Assembly: GCF_003334255.1 (NCBI RefSeq)
Contig: NZ_QOWU01000003.1
Origin: Escherichia coli
Lineage (GTDB): Bacteria; Pseudomonadota; Gammaproteobacteria; Enterobacterales; Enterobacteriaceae
Reading direction: 5' to 3' (one strand)
Length of the DNA: 64,000 nt
Positions 1 to 56,518 of the stretch are shown here, in pieces. Each line of letters opens with the position of its first letter. The first letter of the stretch is position 1. The notes beneath the pieces are model-generated. The model saw only the letters and a list, made by a program, of their open reading frames with translations, did not search any database and had not been told where the DNA came from. The position numbers and the translations under genes were made by a program.

Positions 1-752
1 TTCTGGGGATTGATTTTTGGCTGGAAGCCTTATTTTTATTCCGCCCGATAATCGTTTGTACCCTAACTGGCGCTATTCTCGGTGATATTCAGACTGGCTT
101 AATTACCGGTGGTCTGACAGAGTTGGCTTTCGCCGGATTAACCCCTGCAGGTGGTGTTCAGCCGCCCAACCCGATTATGGCGGGTCTGATGACCACCGTC
201 ATTGCATGGTCTACGGGCGTTGATGCCAAAACAGCAATTGGTCTTGGCCTGCCGTTTAGTTTGTTAATGCAGTACGTCATTCTGTTCTTCTATTCCGCTT
301 TCTCATTATTTATGACCAAAGCCGATAAATGCGCGAAAGAGGCGGATACGGCAGCGTTTTCCCGGCTTAACTGGACAACGATGCTCATCGTCGCTTCAGC
401 GTATGCGGTGATTGCTTTCCTCTGTACTTACCTGGCACAGGGGGCGATGCAGGCGCTGGTGAAAGCGATGCCCGCCTAGCTGACCCACGGCTTTGAAGTG
501 GCTGGCGGTATTCTGCCTGCCGTTGGTTTTGGCTTGCTGCTGCGCGTAATGTTCAAAGCGCAATATATCCCTTACCTGATCGCCGGTTTCCTGTTTGTTT
601 GCTACATCCAGGTCAGCAACCTGTTGCCGGTTGCCGTACTGGGCGCAGGCTTTGCGGTGTATGAGTTTTTCAATGCGAAATCCCGGCAGCAAGCGCAACC
701 GCAGCCCGTTGCCAGTAAAAATGAAGAAGAGGACTACAGCAATGGGATCTGA
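1..752 (+). pseudogene. agaC: PTS N-acetylgalactosamine/galactosamine IIC component; 5' end outside window; reading frame interrupted by in-frame TAG at 477-479
   Basis: ORFs 123..479 and 498..752 are in the same frame and together read as one mannose-family IIC membrane protein (...QALVKAMPA*LTHGFEVAGGILPAVGFG...); 3' end overlaps agaD start by 11 nt. Confidence 0.8.
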
Positions 753-6604: not shown

Positions 6605-7696
6605 ATGAAAAGAGCGCCTCTTATAACAGGTCTTTTGTTGATATCCACATCCTGCACTTATGCCTCCTCAGGAGGGTGTGGAGCCGACAGCACTAGCGGT
6701 GCGACAAATTACAGCAGTGTGGTTGATGATGTTACGGTGAACCAGACAGATAACGTGACAGGACGGGAGTTTACCTCTGCAACGCTAAGTAGCACTAACT
6801 GGCAATACGCCTGTTCCTGCTCTGCGGGTAAGGCAGTTAAACTTGTCTATATGGTCAGCCCCGTACTTACCACCACTGGACATCAGACAGGATATTACAA
6901 ACTCAATGACAGCCTGGATATTAAAACCACATTACAGGCAAACGACATTCCAGGACTCACAACCGACCAGGTTGTCTCTGTTAACACCCGATTCACACAG
7001 ATAAAAAACAACACGGTATATTCTGCTGCAACCCAAACGGGTGTTTGCCAGGGTGATACGTCTCGTTATGGACCCGTTAATATTGGTGCGAACACCACCT
7101 TTACCCTGTATGTCACCAAGCCATTTCTCGGCTCGATGACCATTCCGAAAACGGATATTGCCGTCATTAAAGGCGCGTGGGTCGATGGAATGGGAAGCCC
7201 GTCTACAGGTGACTTCCATGATTTAGTCAAGTTATCGATTCAGGGAAATCTCACCGCCCCACAGTCGTGCAAAATTAATCAGGGCGATGTTATTAAGGTT
7301 AATTTTGGATTCATCAATGGTCAGAAGTTTACCACCCGCAATGCCATGCCAGACGGTTTTACTCCAGTAGACTTTGATATCACTTATGACTGTGGTGATA
7401 CTTCAAAGATTAAAAACTCGTTGCAAATGCGCATCGACGGTACAACTGGGGTAGTAGACCAGTACAACCTGGTCGCCAGGCGAAGAAGTTCAGACAATGT
7501 GCCCGATGTCGGTATTCGTATTGAAAATCTCGGCGGCGGAGTTGCAAATATTCCTTTTCAGAACGGTATCCTTCCCGTTGATCCTTCCGGGCATGGCACC
7601 GTCAATATGCGCGCCTGGCCAGTTAATCTGGTCGGTGGTGAGCTGGAAACAGGAAAATTTCAGGGCACAGCCACCATTACCGTCATCGTGCGGTAA
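6605..7696 (+). CDS. yraK: Fimbrial adhesin-like (tip) protein
   Basis: 363 aa from ATG 6605 ([22 protein letters not shown]...); signal peptide; last gene of the chaperone-usher operon. Confidence 0.85.
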
Positions 7697-8600
7697 AAGA
7701 AGACGTTGCGTTTTGATTAACGCAACGCTTCGGCACTGTTACCCCTGCTGCTCCAGCGCATAACTTATACAGCGCATTTTTCTTCACGCCGTGAATTTCT
7801 GCGGCCAGCGCCGCCGCTTTTTTCAGCGGCAGTTCTGCCTGTAGCAGCGCCAGCGTGCGCAGGGCATCGGCGGGTAAGTCTTCTTCCTGTGCTTTATGAC
7901 CTTCGACAATCAGCACCATTTCGCCTTTGCGACGGTTTTCATCTTCCTTTACCCACGCCAGCAGCTCGCCAACGGGCGCGCCGTGAATGGTTTCCCAGGT
8001 TTTGGTCAGCTCACGCGCCAGAACCACGTAGCGGGATTCGCCTAATACCGCAACGATATCTTCCAGGCTATCTAACAGACGGTGGGTAGATTCATAAAAA
8101 ATCAGCGTGCGCGGCTCCGCTTCAATGGCTTTTAGCGCATCACGGCGGCCTTTTGATTTGGCAGGTAAAAAGCCTTCGTAACAGAAACGGTCAGAGGGTA
8201 AACCCGCTGCGCTTAACGCAGTGATAGCAGCACACGGCCCGGGTAGCGGCACCACGCGGATCCCCGCTTCACGGCAGGTACGCACCAGATGGTAGCCAGG
8301 ATCGTTAATTAGCGGCGTTCCGGCATCGGAAACCAGCGCAATGTTTTGCCCCTCTTGCAGCTTCGCCAGCAGCGTTTCAGCTTTTTGTTGTTCGTTATGG
8401 TCGTGCAGCGCAAACAACCGGGCATTAATCCCAAAATGTTGCAGCAATAAACCGGTGTGACGAGTATCCTCGGCGGCAATCAGATCAACGGCCTGTAATA
8501 CCTCTAACGCACGCTGGGTGATATCCGCCAGATTGCCGATTGGCGTCGGTACAATGTAAAGCTGGCCCTGAGAATTATCCGCCGATTGGTGTTGTTTCAT
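7683..8600 (-). CDS. rsmI: 16S rRNA 2'-O-ribose C1402 methyltransferase; 3' end reads in a shifted frame in this window (305 codons instead of the expected 286)
   Basis: N-terminus [24 protein letters not shown]; tetrapyrrole-methylase-type SAM MTase; the +1 frame between about 7760 and 7783 leads to ...YALEQQG-TAA at 7739-7741, i.e. a 286-aa product. Confidence 0.85.
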
Positions 8601-33477: not shown

Positions 33478-33554
<77 letters not shown>

Positions 33555-36878: not shown

Positions 36879-37299
36879 CCAGAAATCCAAGTTCACAACC
36901 AATATAAACAATTATCAACAATGTTTAATTTTATATCAGACATGTTTTTCAACTCTGATCCATATCAGAACGAAACACTGTTAGTTTTTTCTTTTTAAAT
37001 GATGCGGCCATTGCGTTCTCAGTAATTAAATAACATTATCAATGCGTCTCTAAACATTACGCAGAACGTAGCCATCAGTCGTTATACTGACAGGAGCAGG
37101 ATGGTTTATCGAGAAGTAAACATATCCGTATTCGTACCGGAACTGGAGTTGACACAATAAAGTGCCAATTATGTCAGTAGAAGGGAAAAATTTATAACTA
37201 AGGCGTACCGGCACCATCGTTTCAAGGTACCAGCTACGAGTAAAGCAACTGGACGAGATACAGATACCTGACAACCATTCCTCAGACCTGGACCAAAAC

Positions 37300-37336: not shown

Positions 37337-37423
37337 TGGTACCGAGGACGGGACTTGAACCCGTAAGCCCTATTGGGCACTACCACCTCAAGGTAGCGTG
37401 TCTACCAATTCCACCACCTCGGC
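37337..37423 (-). tRNA. leuU: tRNA-Leu (GAG anticodon)
   Basis: Minus strand reads GCCGAGGTGGTGGAATTGGTAGACACGCTACCTTGAGGTGGTAGTGCCCAATAGGGCTTACGGGTTCAAGTCCCGTCCTCGGTACCA (87 nt, long variable arm). Confidence 0.95.
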
Positions 37424-43503: not shown

Positions 43504-43980
<477 letters not shown>

Positions 43981-44227
43981 TTGTTATACCTCTTGAATAT
44001 TCCTGATGGGGCAAGTCTTCACCCACCCCGGCTGTTCGGCCTGCCCGGCATAACTCCTCACCGGGACCAGAAGCAAAAAAATACCGACCCGGGTACAAGT
44101 CCCAGGTCAGCTACAATTCACATTTTGATAGTCATTTTACCCTGAAGTTCCCGAAGGGTCATCGTTTACTTTATAGGGCGTTGCGCCGTAGTATGACGGC
44201 TCGATTCCAGGTTGTTAGCGCGAGATT

Positions 44228-45661
44228 ATGCGATTTTCCAGATTTATCATCGGATTGACCAGCTGTATAGCGTTCAGTGTTCAGGCCGCAAATGTTGATG
44301 AGTACATTACTCAACTCCCCGCTGGTGCCAACCTTGCCCTGATGGTGCAAAAAGTCGGCGCGTCGGCCCCCGCTATTGATTACCACAGTCAGCAGATGGC
44401 GCTGCCTGCCAGTACCCAGAAAGTGATTACTGCGCTGGCGGCGTTGATTCAACTCGGCCCCGATTTTCGTTTTACCACGACGCTTGAAACCAAAGGCAAT
44501 GTGGAAAACGGCGTACTTAAGGGTGACTTAGTGGCGCGATTTGGTGCCGATCCGACGTTAAAACGTCAGGATATTCGCAATATGGTCGCGACTTTGAAAA
44601 AATCTGGCGTCAACCAAATCGATGGCAATGTGTTGATAGATACCTCCATTTTCGCCAGCCACGATAAAGCCCCCGGCTGGCCATGGAATGACATGACACA
44701 ATGCTTTAGCGCTCCGCCTGCCGCCGCCATAGTTGACCGCAACTGTTTCTCCGTCTCGCTCTACAGTGCCCCAAAGCCTGGTGATATGGCTTTTATACGC
44801 GTGGCATCTTATTACCCCGTTACGATGTTCAGCCAGGTACGCACCCTCCCCCGTGGTTCTGCCGAAGCGCAATACTGCGAACTGGATGTGGTGCCAGGCG
44901 ACCTGAACCGCTTTACGCTGACGGGATGCCTGCCACAACGTTCTGAGCCGCTCCCGTTGGCTTTTGCCGTGCAGGATGGAGCCAGCTATGCCGGTGCAAT
45001 TCTGAAAGATGAGTTAAAACAGGCGGGTATCACCTGGAGCGGAACACTGCTGCGCCAGACTCAGGTTAACGAACCTGGAACGGTAGTTGCCAGTAAACAG
45101 TCGGCCCCGCTGCACGATCTGCTTAAGATTATGCTGAAAAAGTCGGACAACATGATCGCCGATACGGTTTTCCGCATGATAGGCCATGCGCGCTTCAATG
45201 TGCCTGGAACATGGCGGGCCGGGTCGGACGCCGTGCGTCAGATCCTGCGCCAGCAAGCCGGTGTCGATATTGGAAACACCATTATTGCCGATGGTTCAGG
45301 GCTTTCGCGGCATAACCTGATTGCCCCCGCCACCATGATGCAGGTGCTGCAATACATTGCCCAACACGACAATGAACTTAACTTTATCTCCATGCTGCCG
45401 CTGGCGGGCTATGACGGCTCTTTGCAGTACCGTGCAGGTCTGCATCAGGCGGGCGTGGATGGAAAAGTCTCAGCGAAAACCGGTTCGTTGCAGGGGGTAT
45501 ATAACCTGGCGGGATTCATTACCACAGCGAGCGGGCAACGAATGGCGTTTGTGCAATATCTTTCTGGCTATGCAGTAGAACCTGCGGATCAGCGTAATCG
45601 CCGTATTCCGTTAGTGCGTTTTGAAAGCCGTTTGTATAAAGATATTTATCAGAACAATTAG
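44228..45661 (+). CDS. dacB: D-alanyl-D-alanine carboxypeptidase/endopeptidase PBP4
   Basis: 477 aa; signal peptide; class-C PBP motifs (STQK, SDN, KTG). Confidence 0.95.
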   Translation: MRFSRFIIGLTSCIAFSVQAANVDEYITQLPAGANLALMVQKVGASAPAIDYHSQQMALPASTQKVITALAALIQLGPDFRFTTTLETKGNVENGVLKGDLVARFGADPTLKRQDIRNMVATLKKSGVNQIDGNVLIDTSIFASHDKAPGWPWNDMTQCFSAPPAAAIVDRNCFSVSLYSAPKPGDMAFIRVASYYPVTMFSQVRTLPRGSAEAQYCELDVVPGDLNRFTLTGCLPQRSEPLPLAFAVQDGASYAGAILKDELKQAGITWSGTLLRQTQVNEPGTVVASKQSAPLHDLLKIMLKKSDNMIADTVFRMIGHARFNVPGTWRAGSDAVRQILRQQAGVDIGNTIIADGSGLSRHNLIAPATMMQVLQYIAQHDNELNFISMLPLAGYDGSLQYRAGLHQAGVDGKVSAKTGSLQGVYNLAGFITTASGQRMAFVQYLSGYAVEPADQRNRRIPLVRFESRLYKDIYQNN

Positions 45662-45669
45662 TCAAAAAG

Positions 45670-45700
45670 AAACCCCGGCACATGGCCGGGGCTTCAGATT
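45670..45700 (+). terminator. Hairpin terminator after dacB
   Basis: AAACCCCGGC-CACATG-GCCGGGGCTTCAG. Confidence 0.6.
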
Positions 45701-45724
45701 ATTGACAAAGTGCGCTTTGTTTAT

Positions 45725-45822
<98 letters not shown>

Positions 45823-45846
45823 TGATTTGGCGTTTATCATCAGTGA

Positions 45847-47034
<1,188 letters not shown>

Positions 47035-48000
47035 TCATTCGCCTGCGCGGGGTTGCGATACCACCGTTGTATGCTTACGTAATCCGCCCCAAATACGATG
47101 ACCAATGGCGGAATACATCGCGCCCGCAACCACGACAAACGCACCGAGATAACCTAAAAGGTTTAACATCGGTCTGGCGAAGAAATCGGGCCAGGCCAGT
47201 GATAAAAGATCTGAAAAAAACAGCGTAAACAGTGGGGTGAGCGTGATGATCGCGCTCACCTGCGCTGCCTGCCAGCGAGCCATCGCTTCCGCCAGGGCGC
47301 CATATCCTACCAATGTATTCAGTCCGCAAAAAATTAAACATGCGAGCTGCCAGTGGCTAAGCTGCGCTATCACTCCAGGCTTTGCCAGAGGGAAGAGCGC
47401 AATTGTACATAAAGTGTACAGTAAAAACAGGATCTGCGGTGAGGCCAGCCGACGCAATAAAACCTTTTGCGCCACGCCATAACTCACCCAAACCGTCGCA
47501 GCACCGACCCCAAAGATAACTCCCCAGGTGTAATCGGTGAGCTTTGTAAATATCTCGACCAGACTGGTGTTAAAAAACATCACCAGGCCGCTCAGGAGCA
47601 TCAATGCCCCTACAACCTGAGTGCTGCGCATTTTCTCTTTCAGGATAAATACGCTGGCAACCATCATGCCAACTGGCGAGAGTTGCCCAATCACCTGCGA
47701 AGCGGTCGGACTCAGGTATTGCAAGGATGAGCTGAACAGGATGAAGTTCCCAAACAGCCCGGCGGTCGCCACTGCCAACAAAATCAACCAGCGTGGCTTA
47801 CGAAACACGCGTAATGGCGGCAACCTCTTCTTCACCGCAAGAATGGCACCCAGGCCAATACTCGCCATCAAGAAACGGTAAAACACGATTGTCGGAGGTT
47901 CCATCACCTCCAGCACCTGCTTCATTGCGATTGGCAACGCCCCCCAGCAAATTGCTGTGGTGAGCGCCAAAAGAATGCCAATGCCTGCCTGCTGCTTCAT
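47035..48000 (-). CDS. yhbE: EamA/DMT family inner membrane transporter
   Basis: 321 aa, 10-TM-like hydrophobic profile. Confidence 0.85.
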   Translation of the reverse strand: MKQQAGIGILLALTTAICWGALPIAMKQVLEVMEPPTIVFYRFLMASIGLGAILAVKKRLPPLRVFRKPRWLILLAVATAGLFGNFILFSSSLQYLSPTASQVIGQLSPVGMMVASVFILKEKMRSTQVVGALMLLSGLVMFFNTSLVEIFTKLTDYTWGVIFGVGAATVWVSYGVAQKVLLRRLASPQILFLLYTLCTIALFPLAKPGVIAQLSHWQLACLIFCGLNTLVGYGALAEAMARWQAAQVSAIITLTPLFTLFFSDLLSLAWPDFFARPMLNLLGYLGAFVVVAGAMYSAIGHRIWGGLRKHTTVVSQPRAGE

Positions 48001-48070
48001 ACCGTATTCCCTGCAAAGCGCATTTGCGGATTAACGTCGCACCATGCGCATTTTTACCGGTTATCGAATG

Positions 48071-48100
48071 TAAAAAGCCCCGCAACGTGTTGCGGGGCTT
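48071..48100 (-). terminator. Intrinsic terminator of rplU-rpmA operon
   Basis: Minus strand AGCCCCGCAAC-ACG-TTGCGGGGCT followed by TTTTTA. Confidence 0.8.
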
Positions 48101-48126
48101 TCATCCGTTACCGGGACGCGAAAAAC

Positions 48127-48752
<626 letters not shown>

Positions 48753-48974
48753 TCAGAGTGCGCTATAAATATTCACAATAGGGCGCGAATATTACGCAAA
48801 ACGCACGCCTTTGACAAGTGCTACAGTCAATACACGAAGAAAAAAAACACAACTTGTACGGTAACGTTTATCTGTGCCATTTTTTCAGTACAATCACCCT
48901 ATATTCCTAACCATAAACCCTAAGTTGCCTTTGTTCACAGTAAGGTAATCGGGGCGAAAAGCCCGGCTTTTGCG

Positions 48975-49946
48975 ATGAATTTAGAAAAAATCAATGAGTT
49001 AACCGCGCAAGATATGGCGGGTGTTAATGCGGCAATCCTTGAGCAGCTTAATTCCGACGTCCAACTGATCAATCAGTTAGGCTATTACATCGTCAGCGGC
49101 GGCGGTAAACGTATTCGTCCGATGATTGCTGTACTGGCTGCACGAGCTGTTGGCTATGAGGGAAATGCGCATGTCACCATTGCTGCCCTGATCGAGTTTA
49201 TCCACACGGCGACTCTGCTGCACGACGACGTTGTGGATGAATCAGATATGCGCAGGGGTAAAGCTACCGCCAACGCCGCATTTGGCAATGCCGCCAGCGT
49301 GCTGGTAGGCGATTTTATTTATACCCGCGCTTTCCAGATGATGACCAGCCTCGGTTCACTCAAAGTGCTGGAAGTCATGTCAGAAGCCGTAAACGTCATC
49401 GCAGAAGGTGAAGTTCTGCAACTGATGAATGTTAACGATCCGGACATCACTGAAGAAAACTACATGCGCGTTATCTATAGCAAAACCGCGCGTCTGTTTG
49501 AGGCTGCCGCGCAGTGTTCCGGAATTCTGGCTGGCTGTACGCCGGAGGAGGAGAAAGGCCTGCAGGATTATGGGCGCTATCTCGGCACTGCTTTCCAGTT
49601 GATCGACGATTTACTCGATTACAATGCCGATGGCGAACAGTTAGGTAAAAACGTCGGCGACGATCTGAACGAAGGTAAACCGACGCTGCCGCTGCTGCAT
49701 GCGATGCATCATGGCACACCAGAACAGGCACAGATGATCCGTACCGCCATCGAACAGGGTAACGGTCGCCATCTTCTGGAACCGGTTCTGGAAGCAATGA
49801 ACGCTTGTGGATCTCTTGAATGGACGCGTCAGCGCGCCGAGGAAGAAGCAGACAAAGCCATCGCAGCGTTACAGGTGCTCCCGGACACCCCTTGGCGAGA
49901 AGCACTCATCGGCCTCGCGCACATCGCTGTTCAACGCGATCGTTAA
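48975..49946 (+). CDS. ispB: Octaprenyl diphosphate synthase
   Basis: 323 aa; trans-prenyltransferase DDxxD motifs (LLHDDVVDESD, DDLLD). Confidence 0.97.
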   Translation: MNLEKINELTAQDMAGVNAAILEQLNSDVQLINQLGYYIVSGGGKRIRPMIAVLAARAVGYEGNAHVTIAALIEFIHTATLLHDDVVDESDMRRGKATANAAFGNAASVLVGDFIYTRAFQMMTSLGSLKVLEVMSEAVNVIAEGEVLQLMNVNDPDITEENYMRVIYSKTARLFEAAAQCSGILAGCTPEEEKGLQDYGRYLGTAFQLIDDLLDYNADGEQLGKNVGDDLNEGKPTLPLLHAMHHGTPEQAQMIRTAIEQGNGRHLLEPVLEAMNACGSLEWTRQRAEEEADKAIAALQVLPDTPWREALIGLAHIAVQRDR

Positions 49947-50174
49947 TCCCCTCCCCTCATCCCGCGCAGTGCGCGGGATGATTCCAGTAAACTCCATAAG
50001 AATACTTATTCAGCGTAATAATGCACTGAAAAACCAGTGTATACATCTTTATATATTCTGAATATTCACACTCTTTACAGGAACTTTTTAGAGCAATCGG
50101 CCATCAGGAGTATAGTGATGCTCGACAGAAGAAGTGTTCTGAATGAAAGCGACTAACTTAAGGAGTGAGGAAAG

Positions 50175-50453
50175 ATGGAAAGTAATTTCATTGACTGGCA
50201 TCCCGCTGACATCATTGCGGGTTTGCGCAAGAAGGGAACGTCAATGGCGGCGGAATCTCGCAGAAATGGTTTGAGTTCCTCAACGCTGGCGAATGCATTA
50301 TCGCGCCCATGGCCGAAAGGAGAGATGATTATTGCGAAGGCCCTGGGAACTGACCCCTGGGTTATCTGGCCATCACGCTACCATGATCCGCAGACCCATG
50401 AGTTTATCGACAGAACGCAGTTGATGCGTAGCTACACTAAACCGAAAAAATGA
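50175..50453 (+). CDS. sfsB: Ner-like DNA-binding transcriptional regulator
   Basis: 92 aa; HTH Ner-family. Confidence 0.9.
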   Translation: MESNFIDWHPADIIAGLRKKGTSMAAESRRNGLSSSTLANALSRPWPKGEMIIAKALGTDPWVIWPSRYHDPQTHEFIDRTQLMRSYTKPKK

Positions 50454-50500
50454 GTGGTCTGGCGGTAGCCCCGCGTACGGGGCTGCCAGCTTTCAGACGA

Positions 50501-51760
<1,260 letters not shown>

Positions 51761-51814
51761 TTAGTTTGTTCTCAGTTAACAATTCATATCCGCTACCGGC
51801 GAATCGCCCATAGC

Positions 51815-52069
51815 TCAAAAGCCGTTCAGTTTGCGATCGCGCGCCCACTCCGCAGGGGTATACGCTTTAATCGACACAGCATGAATGCGGTTATCCGCAA
51901 TATATTCCATCAGCGGGCCATAGACCGTCTGCTGTTTTTTAACCCGACTCATGCCGTCAAACAACTCACCCACGGCAATAACCTGAAAGTGGCTGCCATC
52001 GCCGGAAACGTGGACTTCCTGGAGGGAGAGAGCGTTCATCAACACGCTCTGAATTTCATTATTTTCCAT
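51815..52069 (-). CDS. ibaG: BolA-family acid-stress protein
   Basis: 84 aa from ATG 52069 ([30 protein letters not shown]…). Confidence 0.9.
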
Positions 52070-52188
52070 GGGATCTTCAATCATCAGTTAATAAACCAGC
52101 GAAACATCTTAGAGCAAAGTTGCGCTGGCATAAATAAGCAAAAAGCCTCGCTGATAAATCAGACAAGGCTCGACTTGCAGGCAGGTTT

Positions 52189-52219
52189 GCCGGACAGGCG
52201 GTTAACGCCATATCCGGCC
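52189..52219. repeat. REP-like palindromic element downstream of mlaB
   Basis: GCCGGACAGGCGGTTAACGCCATATCCGGCC followed by an A-run. Confidence 0.6.
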
Positions 52220-52228
52220 TGAAAAAAT

Positions 52229-52521
52229 TTAACGAGGCAGAACATCAGCAGGCAAATTATACAATTTCGCCAGGGTATACACTTTGTCATTTACCCCCTG
52301 AAGCGTCACATTGTTGCCCTGCTTTTTCGCCAGATCGATAAGATGGAGCAGCAGTGCCAGTCCCCCCGTATCCACGCGGGAGACACGGCTAAGATCGATG
52401 CAGGTAATCCCCTTCACCGCTTCCTCACGCATTTCCCAAAGCGGTAGCAAAACGTCCTGATCCAGCTCTCCGGATAACGCCAGCGTGTCACCCGTCTGCA
52501 TCCAGCTCAGTGACTCGCTCA

Positions 52522-55540: not shown

Positions 55541-56518
55541 ATGCTTTTAGCTACGGCACTGTTAATTGTTGGTTTACTTTTGGTCGTTTACAGTGCCGAC
55601 CGCCTGGTTTTTGCCGCGTCTATTCTTTGCCGAACCTTTGGCATCCCGCCGCTGATCATCGGCATGACGGTGGTCAGTATTGGTACATCGTTACCAGAAG
55701 TCATCGTCTCGCTTGCCGCGTCTCTGCACGAACAACGCGATTTAGCCGTTGGTACAGCCCTCGGCTCAAACATTATCAATATATTGCTGATCCTCGGTCT
55801 GGCTGCGCTGGTTCGTCCTTTTACCGTCCATTCTGATGTTCTACGCCGTGAATTACCCTTAATGTTGTTGGTCAGCGTGGTGGCCGGTTCCGTACTCTAT
55901 GACGGACAACTTAGTCGCAGCGATGGTATCTTTCTCCTCTTTCTGGCTGTGCTATGGCTGCTGTTCATTGTTAAACTTGCACGTCAGGCTGAACGTCAGG
56001 GGACTGACAGCCTGACCAGAGAGCAGCTTGCAGAGCTGCCGCGTGACGGCGGATTGCCCGTCGCGTTTTTATGGCTCGGCATTGCGCTTATCATCATGCC
56101 AGTGGCCACGCGGATGGTGGTTGATAACGCCACGGTGCTGGCGAATTACTTTGCCATCAGCGAGTTGACGATGGGTCTGACGGCAATTGCTATCGGAACC
56201 AGCCTGCCGGAACTGGCAACCGCAATAGCGGGGGTTCGCAAAGGTGAAAACGACATTGCTGTCGGAAATATCATTGGCGCAAACATTTTTAATATTGTCA
56301 TCGTGTTGGGTTTACCCGCGCTGATAACGCCAGGAGAGATTGATCCACTGGCGTACAGTCGTGACTACAGCGTGATGTTGCTGGTGAGCATTATTTTTGC
56401 GTTGCTGTGCTGGCGGCGCTCCCCGCAACCGGGCCGTGGTGTAGGGGGATTATTAACTGGCGGATTTATCGTATGGCTGGCGATGTTGTACTGGTTATCG
56501 CCAATACTCGTTGAATAA
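55541..56518 (+). CDS. yrbG: Na+/Ca2+ exchanger (CaCA) family inner membrane protein
   Basis: 325 aa; duplicated alpha-repeat motifs (GTSLPE). Confidence 0.9.
   Translation: MLLATALLIVGLLLVVYSADRLVFAASILCRTFGIPPLIIGMTVVSIGTSLPEVIVSLAASLHEQRDLAVGTALGSNIINILLILGLAALVRPFTVHSDVLRRELPLMLLVSVVAGSVLYDGQLSRSDGIFLLFLAVLWLLFIVKLARQAERQGTDSLTREQLAELPRDGGLPVAFLWLGIALIIMPVATRMVVDNATVLANYFAISELTMGLTAIAIGTSLPELATAIAGVRKGENDIAVGNIIGANIFNIVIVLGLPALITPGEIDPLAYSRDYSVMLLVSIIFALLCWRRSPQPGRGVGGLLTGGFIVWLAMLYWLSPILVE

What the first reader, a model, noticed from the sequence alone, without database searches (positions are those of the whole stretch)
7683..7800. rsmI 3' end is frameshifted and extended 19 codons into yraK
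The rsmI frame stays open for 305 codons and ends at 7683, so it overlaps the convergent yraK 3' end (7696) by 14 nt. Shifting one base anywhere between about 7760 and 7783 (which includes a T5 run at 7777-7781 on the plus strand) gives …YALEQQG-stop at 7739-7741 and exactly 286 aa, the length I recall for RsmI. That fits a single-base insertion near the 3' end, which would replace the last few to about 15 residues and add a 19-aa tail. The homopolymer makes a sequencing artefact plausible.
Basis: partly seen in the sequence, partly recalled or inferred. Interest (0 to 1): 0.5.

Follow-up and report, generated by a model that had tools for sequence, protein, structure and literature searches.

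The report
Real one-base frameshift in rsmI tail
A natural E. coli lineage carries a genuine one-base insertion seven codons before the end of the ribosomal RNA methyltransferase gene rsmI. It rewrites the tip of the enzyme's ribosome-binding helix and pushes the stop codon past the gene's terminator, which is an ordinary strain-specific mutation rather than a sequencing error or a new system.

Summary
The rsmI ORF (8600..7683, minus strand) is 305 codons and overlaps the yraK stop (7694-7696) by 14 nt. One base fewer would restore ...YKYALEQQG-stop at 7741-7739, giving 286 aa.

The cause is a single extra A at 7762/7763 (AA where K-12 has A). The last 7 residues are replaced by 26 new ones.

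It is not a sequencing artefact:
- The exact 305-aa protein has two GenBank accessions. It is encoded on contigs from one NCBI assembly and at least four Logan read-set assemblies, one of them seen in 16 samples. All are 100% identical to the window.
- Against its nearest complete relative (strain G1/2, intact rsmI), the 64-kb window shows no other indel.
- None of 5,426 complete RefSeq E. coli genomes carries the insertion, so it is a recent, derived, lineage-private mutation.

Published cryo-EM and mutagenesis work places residues 274-286 in the helix that docks RsmI on 16S rRNA helix 23b. K274, N275 and Y278 survive; Q285 is lost.

The new stop codon lies 10 nt beyond the predicted intrinsic terminator. 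Terminated transcripts may therefore lack a stop codon. This is inferred, not shown.

Likely outcome: a weakened, tolerated rsmI allele. Low interest.

The parts
7683..8600 (-). rsmI, frameshifted allele: 305 codons plus TGA stop at 7685-7683. Residues 1-279 are identical to K-12 RsmI (WP_000809262.1).
   Evidence: ORF list. Translation of K-12 rsmI. Pfam TP_methylase 14-213 and RsmI_C 240-280. PDB 9pzg_V and 5hw4_A match at 100% over the shared residues.
7762..7763 (.). Site of the one-base insertion: AA here, a single A in K-12 MG1655 and in strain G1/2. It falls in codon 280 of rsmI (7763..7761, UUA).
   Evidence: Pairwise alignment. Whole-window comparisons. A 34-mer spanning the site is absent from 5,426 complete genomes. 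The control 33-mer without the insertion is in 4,771.
7686..7763 (-). The 26 novel codons (L280...R305: [26 protein letters not shown]) that replace YALEQQG.
   Evidence: Translations.
7739..7741 (-). Ancestral rsmI stop codon (TAA), now out of frame.
   Evidence: Alternative-frame translation. K-12 annotation and translation.
7693..7728 (-). Predicted intrinsic terminator of rsmI: a 10-bp stem (GCGTTGCGTT / AACGCAACGT), a 6-nt loop, then CTTCTTTTAC. It lies inside the extended ORF and upstream of the new stop codon.
   Evidence: Terminator scan. RNA fold -23.1 kcal/mol, z = -3.2. Sequence.
6605..7696 (+). yraK (fimbrial protein, 363 aa), the convergent neighbour. Its last 14 nt (7683-7696) are overlapped by the extended rsmI ORF. 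Its own sequence is unaffected by the insertion.
   Evidence: K-12 and G1/2 annotation. Translation. Gene calls in L005.

Best explanation
This is a genuine, recent, lineage-specific +1 bp insertion in codon 280 of rsmI, the gene for the 16S rRNA C1402 2'-O-methyltransferase. The host is a commensal-type phylogroup-A E. coli very close to K-12 and to strains G1/2, G6/7 and G8. Shown: the insertion shifts the frame seven codons before the normal stop. The last seven residues of the C-terminal helix CTD-alpha3 are replaced by 26 unrelated residues. The ORF runs through the gene's predicted terminator hairpin into the 3' end of yraK. Inferred: the catalytic core, the dimer interface and three of the four helix-23b contact residues (K274, N275, Y278) are intact. 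Any full-length protein that is made is therefore probably a hypomorph rather than dead. Because the new stop codon lies about 10 nt past the terminator's U-tract, a fraction of transcripts may end without a stop codon. Their products would then be tagged by tmRNA and degraded, which would lower RsmI levels further. Loss of rsmI alone causes no obvious growth defect in E. coli, so such an allele can persist by drift.
For: It is derived and rare: 0 of 5,426 complete genomes carry it, while 4,771 carry the uninserted 33-mer, and orthologues in Salmonella, Citrobacter, Enterobacter and Leclercia are 286-287 aa. It is real and not a one-off error. The exact 305-aa sequence has two GenBank accessions (CUJ87562.1, CAM2929053.1) and Logan entries. 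It lies on contigs from GCA_001299315.1, ERR271233 (same contig in 16 samples), ERR14335419, SRR8529169 and ERR1948968. All are 100% identical to the window over 2.2-18.6 kb. It is recent: strains G1/2, G6/7 and G8 share the window's rare agaC amber and yraK A18T variants but have intact rsmI. The window differs from G1/2 by only 6 substitutions and this one indel in 64 kb. On function: the Pfam RsmI_C match shrinks from model positions 1-46 (64.7 bits) to 1-41 (58.7 bits). CTD-alpha3 is residues 274-286 and binds h23b through K274, N275, Y278 and Q285; deleting alpha3 abolishes methylation and Y278A costs about 40% (bioRxiv 10.1101/2025.08.28.672957). Q285 is the least conserved of the four contacts. 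The tolerance of rsmI loss is taken from Kimura and Suzuki 2010 as cited in PMC10117853.
Against: I could not inspect raw reads. The independence of the Logan samples is inferred from their unrelated accession series, not from metadata. All contigs are identical over the compared stretch, so they could be repeated sequencing of one widely distributed strain; the insertion would still be real in that strain. No data here measure Cm1402, RsmI protein level or the rsmI mRNA 3' end. The terminator is a consensus prediction with a short U-tract (UUUU). Ribosomes translating through it might suppress termination instead of producing non-stop RNA.
Confidence: 0.85

Rival explanations
1. Sequencing or assembly artefact: a spurious extra base in this one assembly, with the true gene being the normal 286-aa rsmI.
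For: No complete RefSeq genome has the insertion. Single-base indels are the commonest assembly error. A T5 run is nearby.
Against: The extra base is in an AA dinucleotide, not in the T5 run. The same allele, with identical flanks, was assembled independently from at least five sources, one of them seen in 16 samples. No other indel separates the window from strain G1/2 in 64 kb.
Confidence: 0.04
2. The insertion is real and the allele is effectively null. Transcripts end at the intrinsic terminator (about 7692-7697), before the new stop codon (7685-7683). Ribosomes then run off a non-stop mRNA and tmRNA tags the product for proteolysis, so the lineage lacks 2'-O-methylation of C1402.
For: There is a hairpin plus U-rich tail on the rsmI strand at 7728-7693, with stable folding. 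No in-frame stop codon occurs until 10 nt after the last U. Placing a terminator ahead of any stop codon is the classical way to make tmRNA substrates (established knowledge: Keiler, Waller and Sauer 1996). The CTD-alpha3 helix that is partly rewritten is essential as a whole.
Against: The terminator is only predicted. No rsmI 3' end was found in the Term-seq supplements held here. The U-tract is short, and translation through the hairpin may cause read-through to the stop codon. Three of the four h23b contact residues are kept.
Confidence: 0.25
3. Programmed recoding or phase variation: the frame is restored by +1 ribosomal frameshifting or transcriptional slippage, or it switches reversibly, so that normal RsmI is still made.
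For: None beyond the fact that one skipped base would restore the wild-type end.
Against: The site (CUG UAU AAG UUA UGC) has no known +1 slippery motif and no upstream Shine-Dalgarno-like stimulator. The nearest homopolymer is only 5 nt, too short for transcriptional slippage. An AA/A difference is not a simple-sequence repeat tract. The allele is absent from all other genomes, so there is no conservation to suggest a programmed function.
Confidence: 0.01

Closest known systems
E. coli K-12 RsmI (YraL, b3146; WP_000809262.1; PDB 5HW4 and 9PZG)
   Same: Residues 1-279 are identical. The TP_methylase catalytic domain is the same, as are the first 41 of 46 positions of the RsmI_C HTH domain. The gene sits in the same place, between lpoA and yraK.
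   Different: Residues 280-286 (YALEQQG, the end of CTD-alpha3 including the h23b contact Q285) are replaced by a 26-residue tail. The stop codon moves 56 nt downstream, past the terminator hairpin and into yraK.
Engineered RsmI-deltaCTD-alpha3 truncation (bioRxiv 10.1101/2025.08.28.672957)
   Same: Both alter the C-terminal helix that docks the auxiliary protomer on 16S rRNA helix 23b.
   Different: The engineered variant removes the whole helix (from about residue 274) and is almost inactive. The natural allele keeps K274, N275, Y278 and K279 and alters only the second half of the helix, so a milder defect is expected.
Non-stop mRNAs rescued by tmRNA (terminator placed before any in-frame stop codon)
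   Same: In the mutant frame no stop codon precedes the predicted intrinsic terminator.
   Different: Use of the terminator, the position of the mRNA 3' end and tmRNA tagging are all untested here. The stop codon is only about 10 nt beyond the U-tract, so read-through transcripts would terminate translation normally.

Membership tests
RsmI (16S rRNA cytidine-1402 2'-O-methyltransferase) | Class III (tetrapyrrole-methylase fold) SAM-dependent methyltransferase domain | tested here: met
   PF00590 covers residues 14-213 with E = 1.3e-33, the same as wild type. The sequence is identical to the PDB 5HW4 chain over 12-258.
RsmI (16S rRNA cytidine-1402 2'-O-methyltransferase) | Complete C-terminal three-helix (HTH) domain, including CTD-alpha3 residues 274-286 | tested here: not met
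   PF23016 matches model positions 1-41 of 46 (58.7 bits), against 1-46 (64.7 bits) in K-12. Residues 280-286 are replaced.
RsmI (16S rRNA cytidine-1402 2'-O-methyltransferase) | Orthology by position: divergent from lpoA and convergent with yraK in E. coli | tested here: met
   The window is collinear with K-12 and G1/2 over 64 kb.
RsmI (16S rRNA cytidine-1402 2'-O-methylation activity) | Methylates the C1402 ribose in 30S subunits | not testable with these tools
   This needs nucleoside LC-MS, primer extension or an in vitro assay with the 305-aa protein.
Non-stop mRNA / tmRNA substrate | No in-frame stop codon upstream of the transcript 3' end | tested here: inconclusive
   At sequence level, the first in-frame stop (7685-7683) lies 10 nt beyond the predicted terminator U-tract (7698-7695). 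The real 3' end is unknown, and no data were found.
Programmed +1 ribosomal frameshift | Conserved slippery or hungry codon with a stimulatory element, retained across relatives | tested here: not met
   There is no such motif at UAU AAG UUA UGC. The allele is absent from 5,426 complete genomes.
Homopolymer sequencing error | Indel within a homopolymer run, not reproducible between independent data sets | tested here: not met
   The insertion is in an AA dinucleotide and not in the T5 run. It is reproduced in several independent assemblies.

The most novel reading that the evidence does not exclude
A natural E. coli lineage in which one inserted base moves the rsmI stop codon just beyond the gene's own intrinsic terminator. 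Most rsmI mRNA would then be non-stop, and RsmI would be destroyed through tmRNA tagging. That would give a wild commensal clone whose ribosomes lack the only 2'-O-methyl group of the 30S subunit (Cm1402), with slightly altered start-codon and reading-frame fidelity and altered aminoglycoside fitness.
Probability: 0.25. Interest if true: 0.35.

Novelty: already known. Interest (0 to 1): 0.15.

Why it matters
The practical value is in annotation. The 305-aa 'RsmI' deposited under two GenBank accessions is a frameshift allele, not a longer isoform, and it should not be corrected away as a sequencing error. Biologically, it is a naturally occurring alteration of the RsmI C-terminal helix that was recently shown to be essential for 30S recognition. 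Isolates of this lineage, compared with their near-isogenic relatives G1/2, G6/7 and G8, could serve as a natural test of how much of that helix is needed in vivo. They could also show whether loss or reduction of Cm1402 is tolerated in the gut. Beyond that, it is an ordinary strain-private mutation in a non-essential gene.

Tried and rejected
- **Insertion in the T5 run (7777-7781).** Rejected. The alignment with K-12 places the extra base at 7762/7763.
- **The 305-aa form as ancestral or widespread.** Rejected. No complete genome has it and 4,771 have the uninserted 33-mer. Related genera have 286-287 aa.
- **An indel-error-prone assembly.** Rejected. Against K-12 the only other gaps lie in a divergent intergenic patch at 50,022-50,040. 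Against G1/2 there are none at all.
- **The window as K-12 with planted or mutagenised changes.** Rejected. The 62 substitutions against K-12 include a dense natural recombination patch, and natural strains match it almost exactly.
- **Experimental 3'-end data for rsmI.** I searched the supplements of four transcript-end studies (PMC7815308, PMC9023263, PMC12259150, PMC8848933). The first has no rsmI or yraK entry in its held files, and the other three have no supplementary text held. The terminator therefore remains a prediction.
- **Searches not run.** I did not scan the metagenome or GTDB contig collections, and I did not predict a structure for the tail. Neither result could change the verdict: independent read-set assemblies already show the allele is real, and a frameshift tail with no homologues would fold with low confidence.

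Full report
**What is in the sequence.**
- The minus-strand ORF 8600..7683 encodes 305 residues. It begins [24 protein letters not shown]... and ends ...[36 protein letters not shown].
- The convergent yraK gene (6605..7696, plus strand) ends with TAA at 7694-7696, so the two reading frames overlap by 14 nt.
- The neighbouring frame on the rsmI strand reads ...SYALEQQG-stop with TAA at 7741-7739. It is closed upstream by TGA at 7786-7784.

**Where the window comes from.**
- The window is E. coli chromosome covering agaC through yrbL, collinear with K-12 MG1655.
- It is not K-12. A full alignment shows 62 substitutions and 5 gap openings (99.89% identity), most of them in a dense patch at 43.8-52.3 kb.
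- The closest complete genomes are strains G1/2, G6/7 and G8, from faeces of a healthy person in Germany. These names are those of genotypes in the probiotic Symbioflor E. coli (PMC5138452).
- Over the whole 64 kb the window differs from G1/2 by six substitutions and one indel, and that indel is the one under study.

**The mutation.**
- Alignment with K-12 shows a single extra A at 7762/7763: CATAACTT here, CATACTT in K-12.
- On the sense strand, AAG-TAT-GCG-CTG-GAG-CAG-CAG-GGG-TAA becomes AAG-TTA-TGC-GCT-GGA-GCA-GCA-GGG-GTA-A...
- K-12 RsmI is 286 aa and ends ...NALYKYALEQQG.
- Residues 1-279 are therefore unchanged. Seven residues (YALEQQG) are replaced by 26, a net gain of 19.
- The T5 run at 7777-7781 is not involved.

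**Real or artefact?**
- A 34-mer centred on the insertion, designed so that every 28-nt seed word spans the site, finds nothing in 5,426 complete RefSeq E. coli genomes. The corresponding 33-mer without the extra base is found in 4,771 of them. The allele is therefore rare and derived.
- An exact-sequence look-up finds the 305-aa protein in public collections under two GenBank accessions (CUJ87562.1, CAM2929053.1) and in Logan assemblies.
- The protein is encoded on contigs from assembly GCA_001299315.1 and from read sets ERR271233 (the same contig in 16 samples), ERR14335419, SRR8529169 and ERR1948968.
- All of these contigs are 100% identical to the window over 2.2 to 18.6 kb.
- The same non-homopolymer insertion would not recur by error in assemblies built independently from unrelated accession series.
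- The window also shows no other indel against its nearest relative. I therefore treat the insertion as a real mutation.
- Strains G1/2, G6/7 and G8 share the window's rare agaC amber codon and yraK A18T change but have an intact rsmI identical to K-12's. The insertion therefore arose recently, within this clonal group.

**Consequences for the protein.**
- Pfam finds the catalytic TP_methylase domain unchanged at residues 14-213.
- The RsmI_C HTH domain match is cut from model positions 1-46 (64.7 bits, residues 240-285) to 1-41 (58.7 bits, residues 240-280).
- The crystal structure 5HW4 covers only G12-P258. The full-length protein is in the 30S complex entry 9PZG.
- The paper describing that complex (bioRxiv 10.1101/2025.08.28.672957) reports several relevant facts:
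  - The last 42 residues form three helices.
  - CTD-alpha3 (residues 274-286) of the auxiliary protomer binds 16S helix 23b through K274, N275, Y278 and Q285.
  - Deleting alpha3 nearly abolishes methylation, and Y278A costs about 40%.
  - Q285 is the least conserved of the four contacts (Q in 33% of the 43 gammaproteobacterial sequences analysed).
- The natural allele keeps K274, N275 and Y278. It loses Q285 and rewrites the second half of the helix (LCAGAAG in place of YALEQQG) before adding a basic 19-residue extension.
- My inference is a partial, not a complete, loss of 30S recognition for any full-length protein that is made.

**Consequences for the transcript.**
- A terminator-like element lies on the rsmI strand at 7728-7703: a 10-bp stem and a 6-nt loop, followed by CTTCTTTTAC. 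It folds at -23.1 kcal/mol, z = -3.2.
- In the wild type the stop codon (7741-7739) lies 11 nt upstream of this hairpin.
- In the mutant frame translation runs through the hairpin. The first stop (TGA, 7685-7683) lies 10 nt beyond the last U of the tract.
- If transcription ends at this terminator, the mRNA has no in-frame stop codon. By established knowledge of trans-translation, the product would then be tagged by tmRNA and degraded.
- If ribosomes following the polymerase prevent the hairpin from forming, transcription would instead read through, antisense to yraK.
- Which outcome dominates is unknown. I found no rsmI 3'-end entry in the transcript-end supplements available. This step is inference.

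[quoted passage not shown] In Vibrio cholerae, rsmI inactivation lowers fitness under sub-MIC tobramycin. A weakened rsmI is therefore plausibly near-neutral in a commensal and can be fixed in a clone by drift.

**Rivals.**
- Sequencing artefact: about 4%, for the reasons given above.
- Effectively null allele through non-stop decay: about 25%. This is a stronger version of the main reading, not a contradiction of it.
- Programmed recoding or phase variation: about 1%. There is no slippery motif, no repeat tract and no conservation.

**Verdict.** The exact site and the number of replaced residues are corrected, and the artefact suggestion is rejected. What remains is an ordinary, lineage-private frameshift near the end of a well-known, non-essential gene. 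It has a mildly interesting twist, because it hits a helix recently shown to be functionally critical and moves the stop codon past the terminator. Interest is low (0.15). The gene and system are already known.

Noticed in passing
window 477-479 (+ strand, agaC): There is a TGG to TAG amber codon in agaC (G>A at 478), which splits the PTS galactosamine IIC subunit into fragments of 176 and 84 aa. Only 5 of 5,426 complete genomes share it (G1/2, G6/7, G8, Z1323HEC0300, JNEC-KY173). In G1/2 it is annotated as a pseudogene with an 'internal stop'.
   Followed up: partly
window 6656 (+ strand, yraK codon 18): A G>A change gives Ala18Thr in the YraK signal-peptide region. Only strains G1/2, G6/7 and G8 among the complete genomes share it, which makes it a useful marker of the clonal group.
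   Followed up: partly
window 33478-33554 (- strand, tRNA-Met CAT; SNP at 33508): The tRNA-Met gene upstream of rimP-nusA (metY) differs from K-12 at one base, about position 46-47 of the tRNA: G here, A in K-12. From memory, this is the known K-12-specific tRNA-fMet2 (A46) versus tRNA-fMet1 (G46) polymorphism.
   Followed up: partly
window 43771-52289, with an indel cluster at 50015-50043: Most of the differences from K-12 fall in this patch (greA through the mlaB-ibaG gap). It includes a short rearranged stretch in the ispB-sfsB intergenic region. G1/2 and other natural strains match it almost exactly, so it looks like a recombination tract relative to K-12.
   Followed up: partly
window 37289 and 56448: Two substitutions are private to the window against both K-12 and G1/2. 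One is A>T at 37289, about 48 nt downstream of the tRNA-Leu(GAG) gene (37337-37423, minus strand). The other is T>G at 56448, inside yrbG. Their effects were not examined.
   Followed up: no
window 7801-7817 (+ strand, inside the rsmI coding region): A GC-rich hairpin (GCGGC...GCCGC) followed by TTTTTT lies on the yraK strand, about 105 nt downstream of the yraK stop. It is a terminator-like match that could end yraK transcripts inside antisense rsmI.
   Followed up: no
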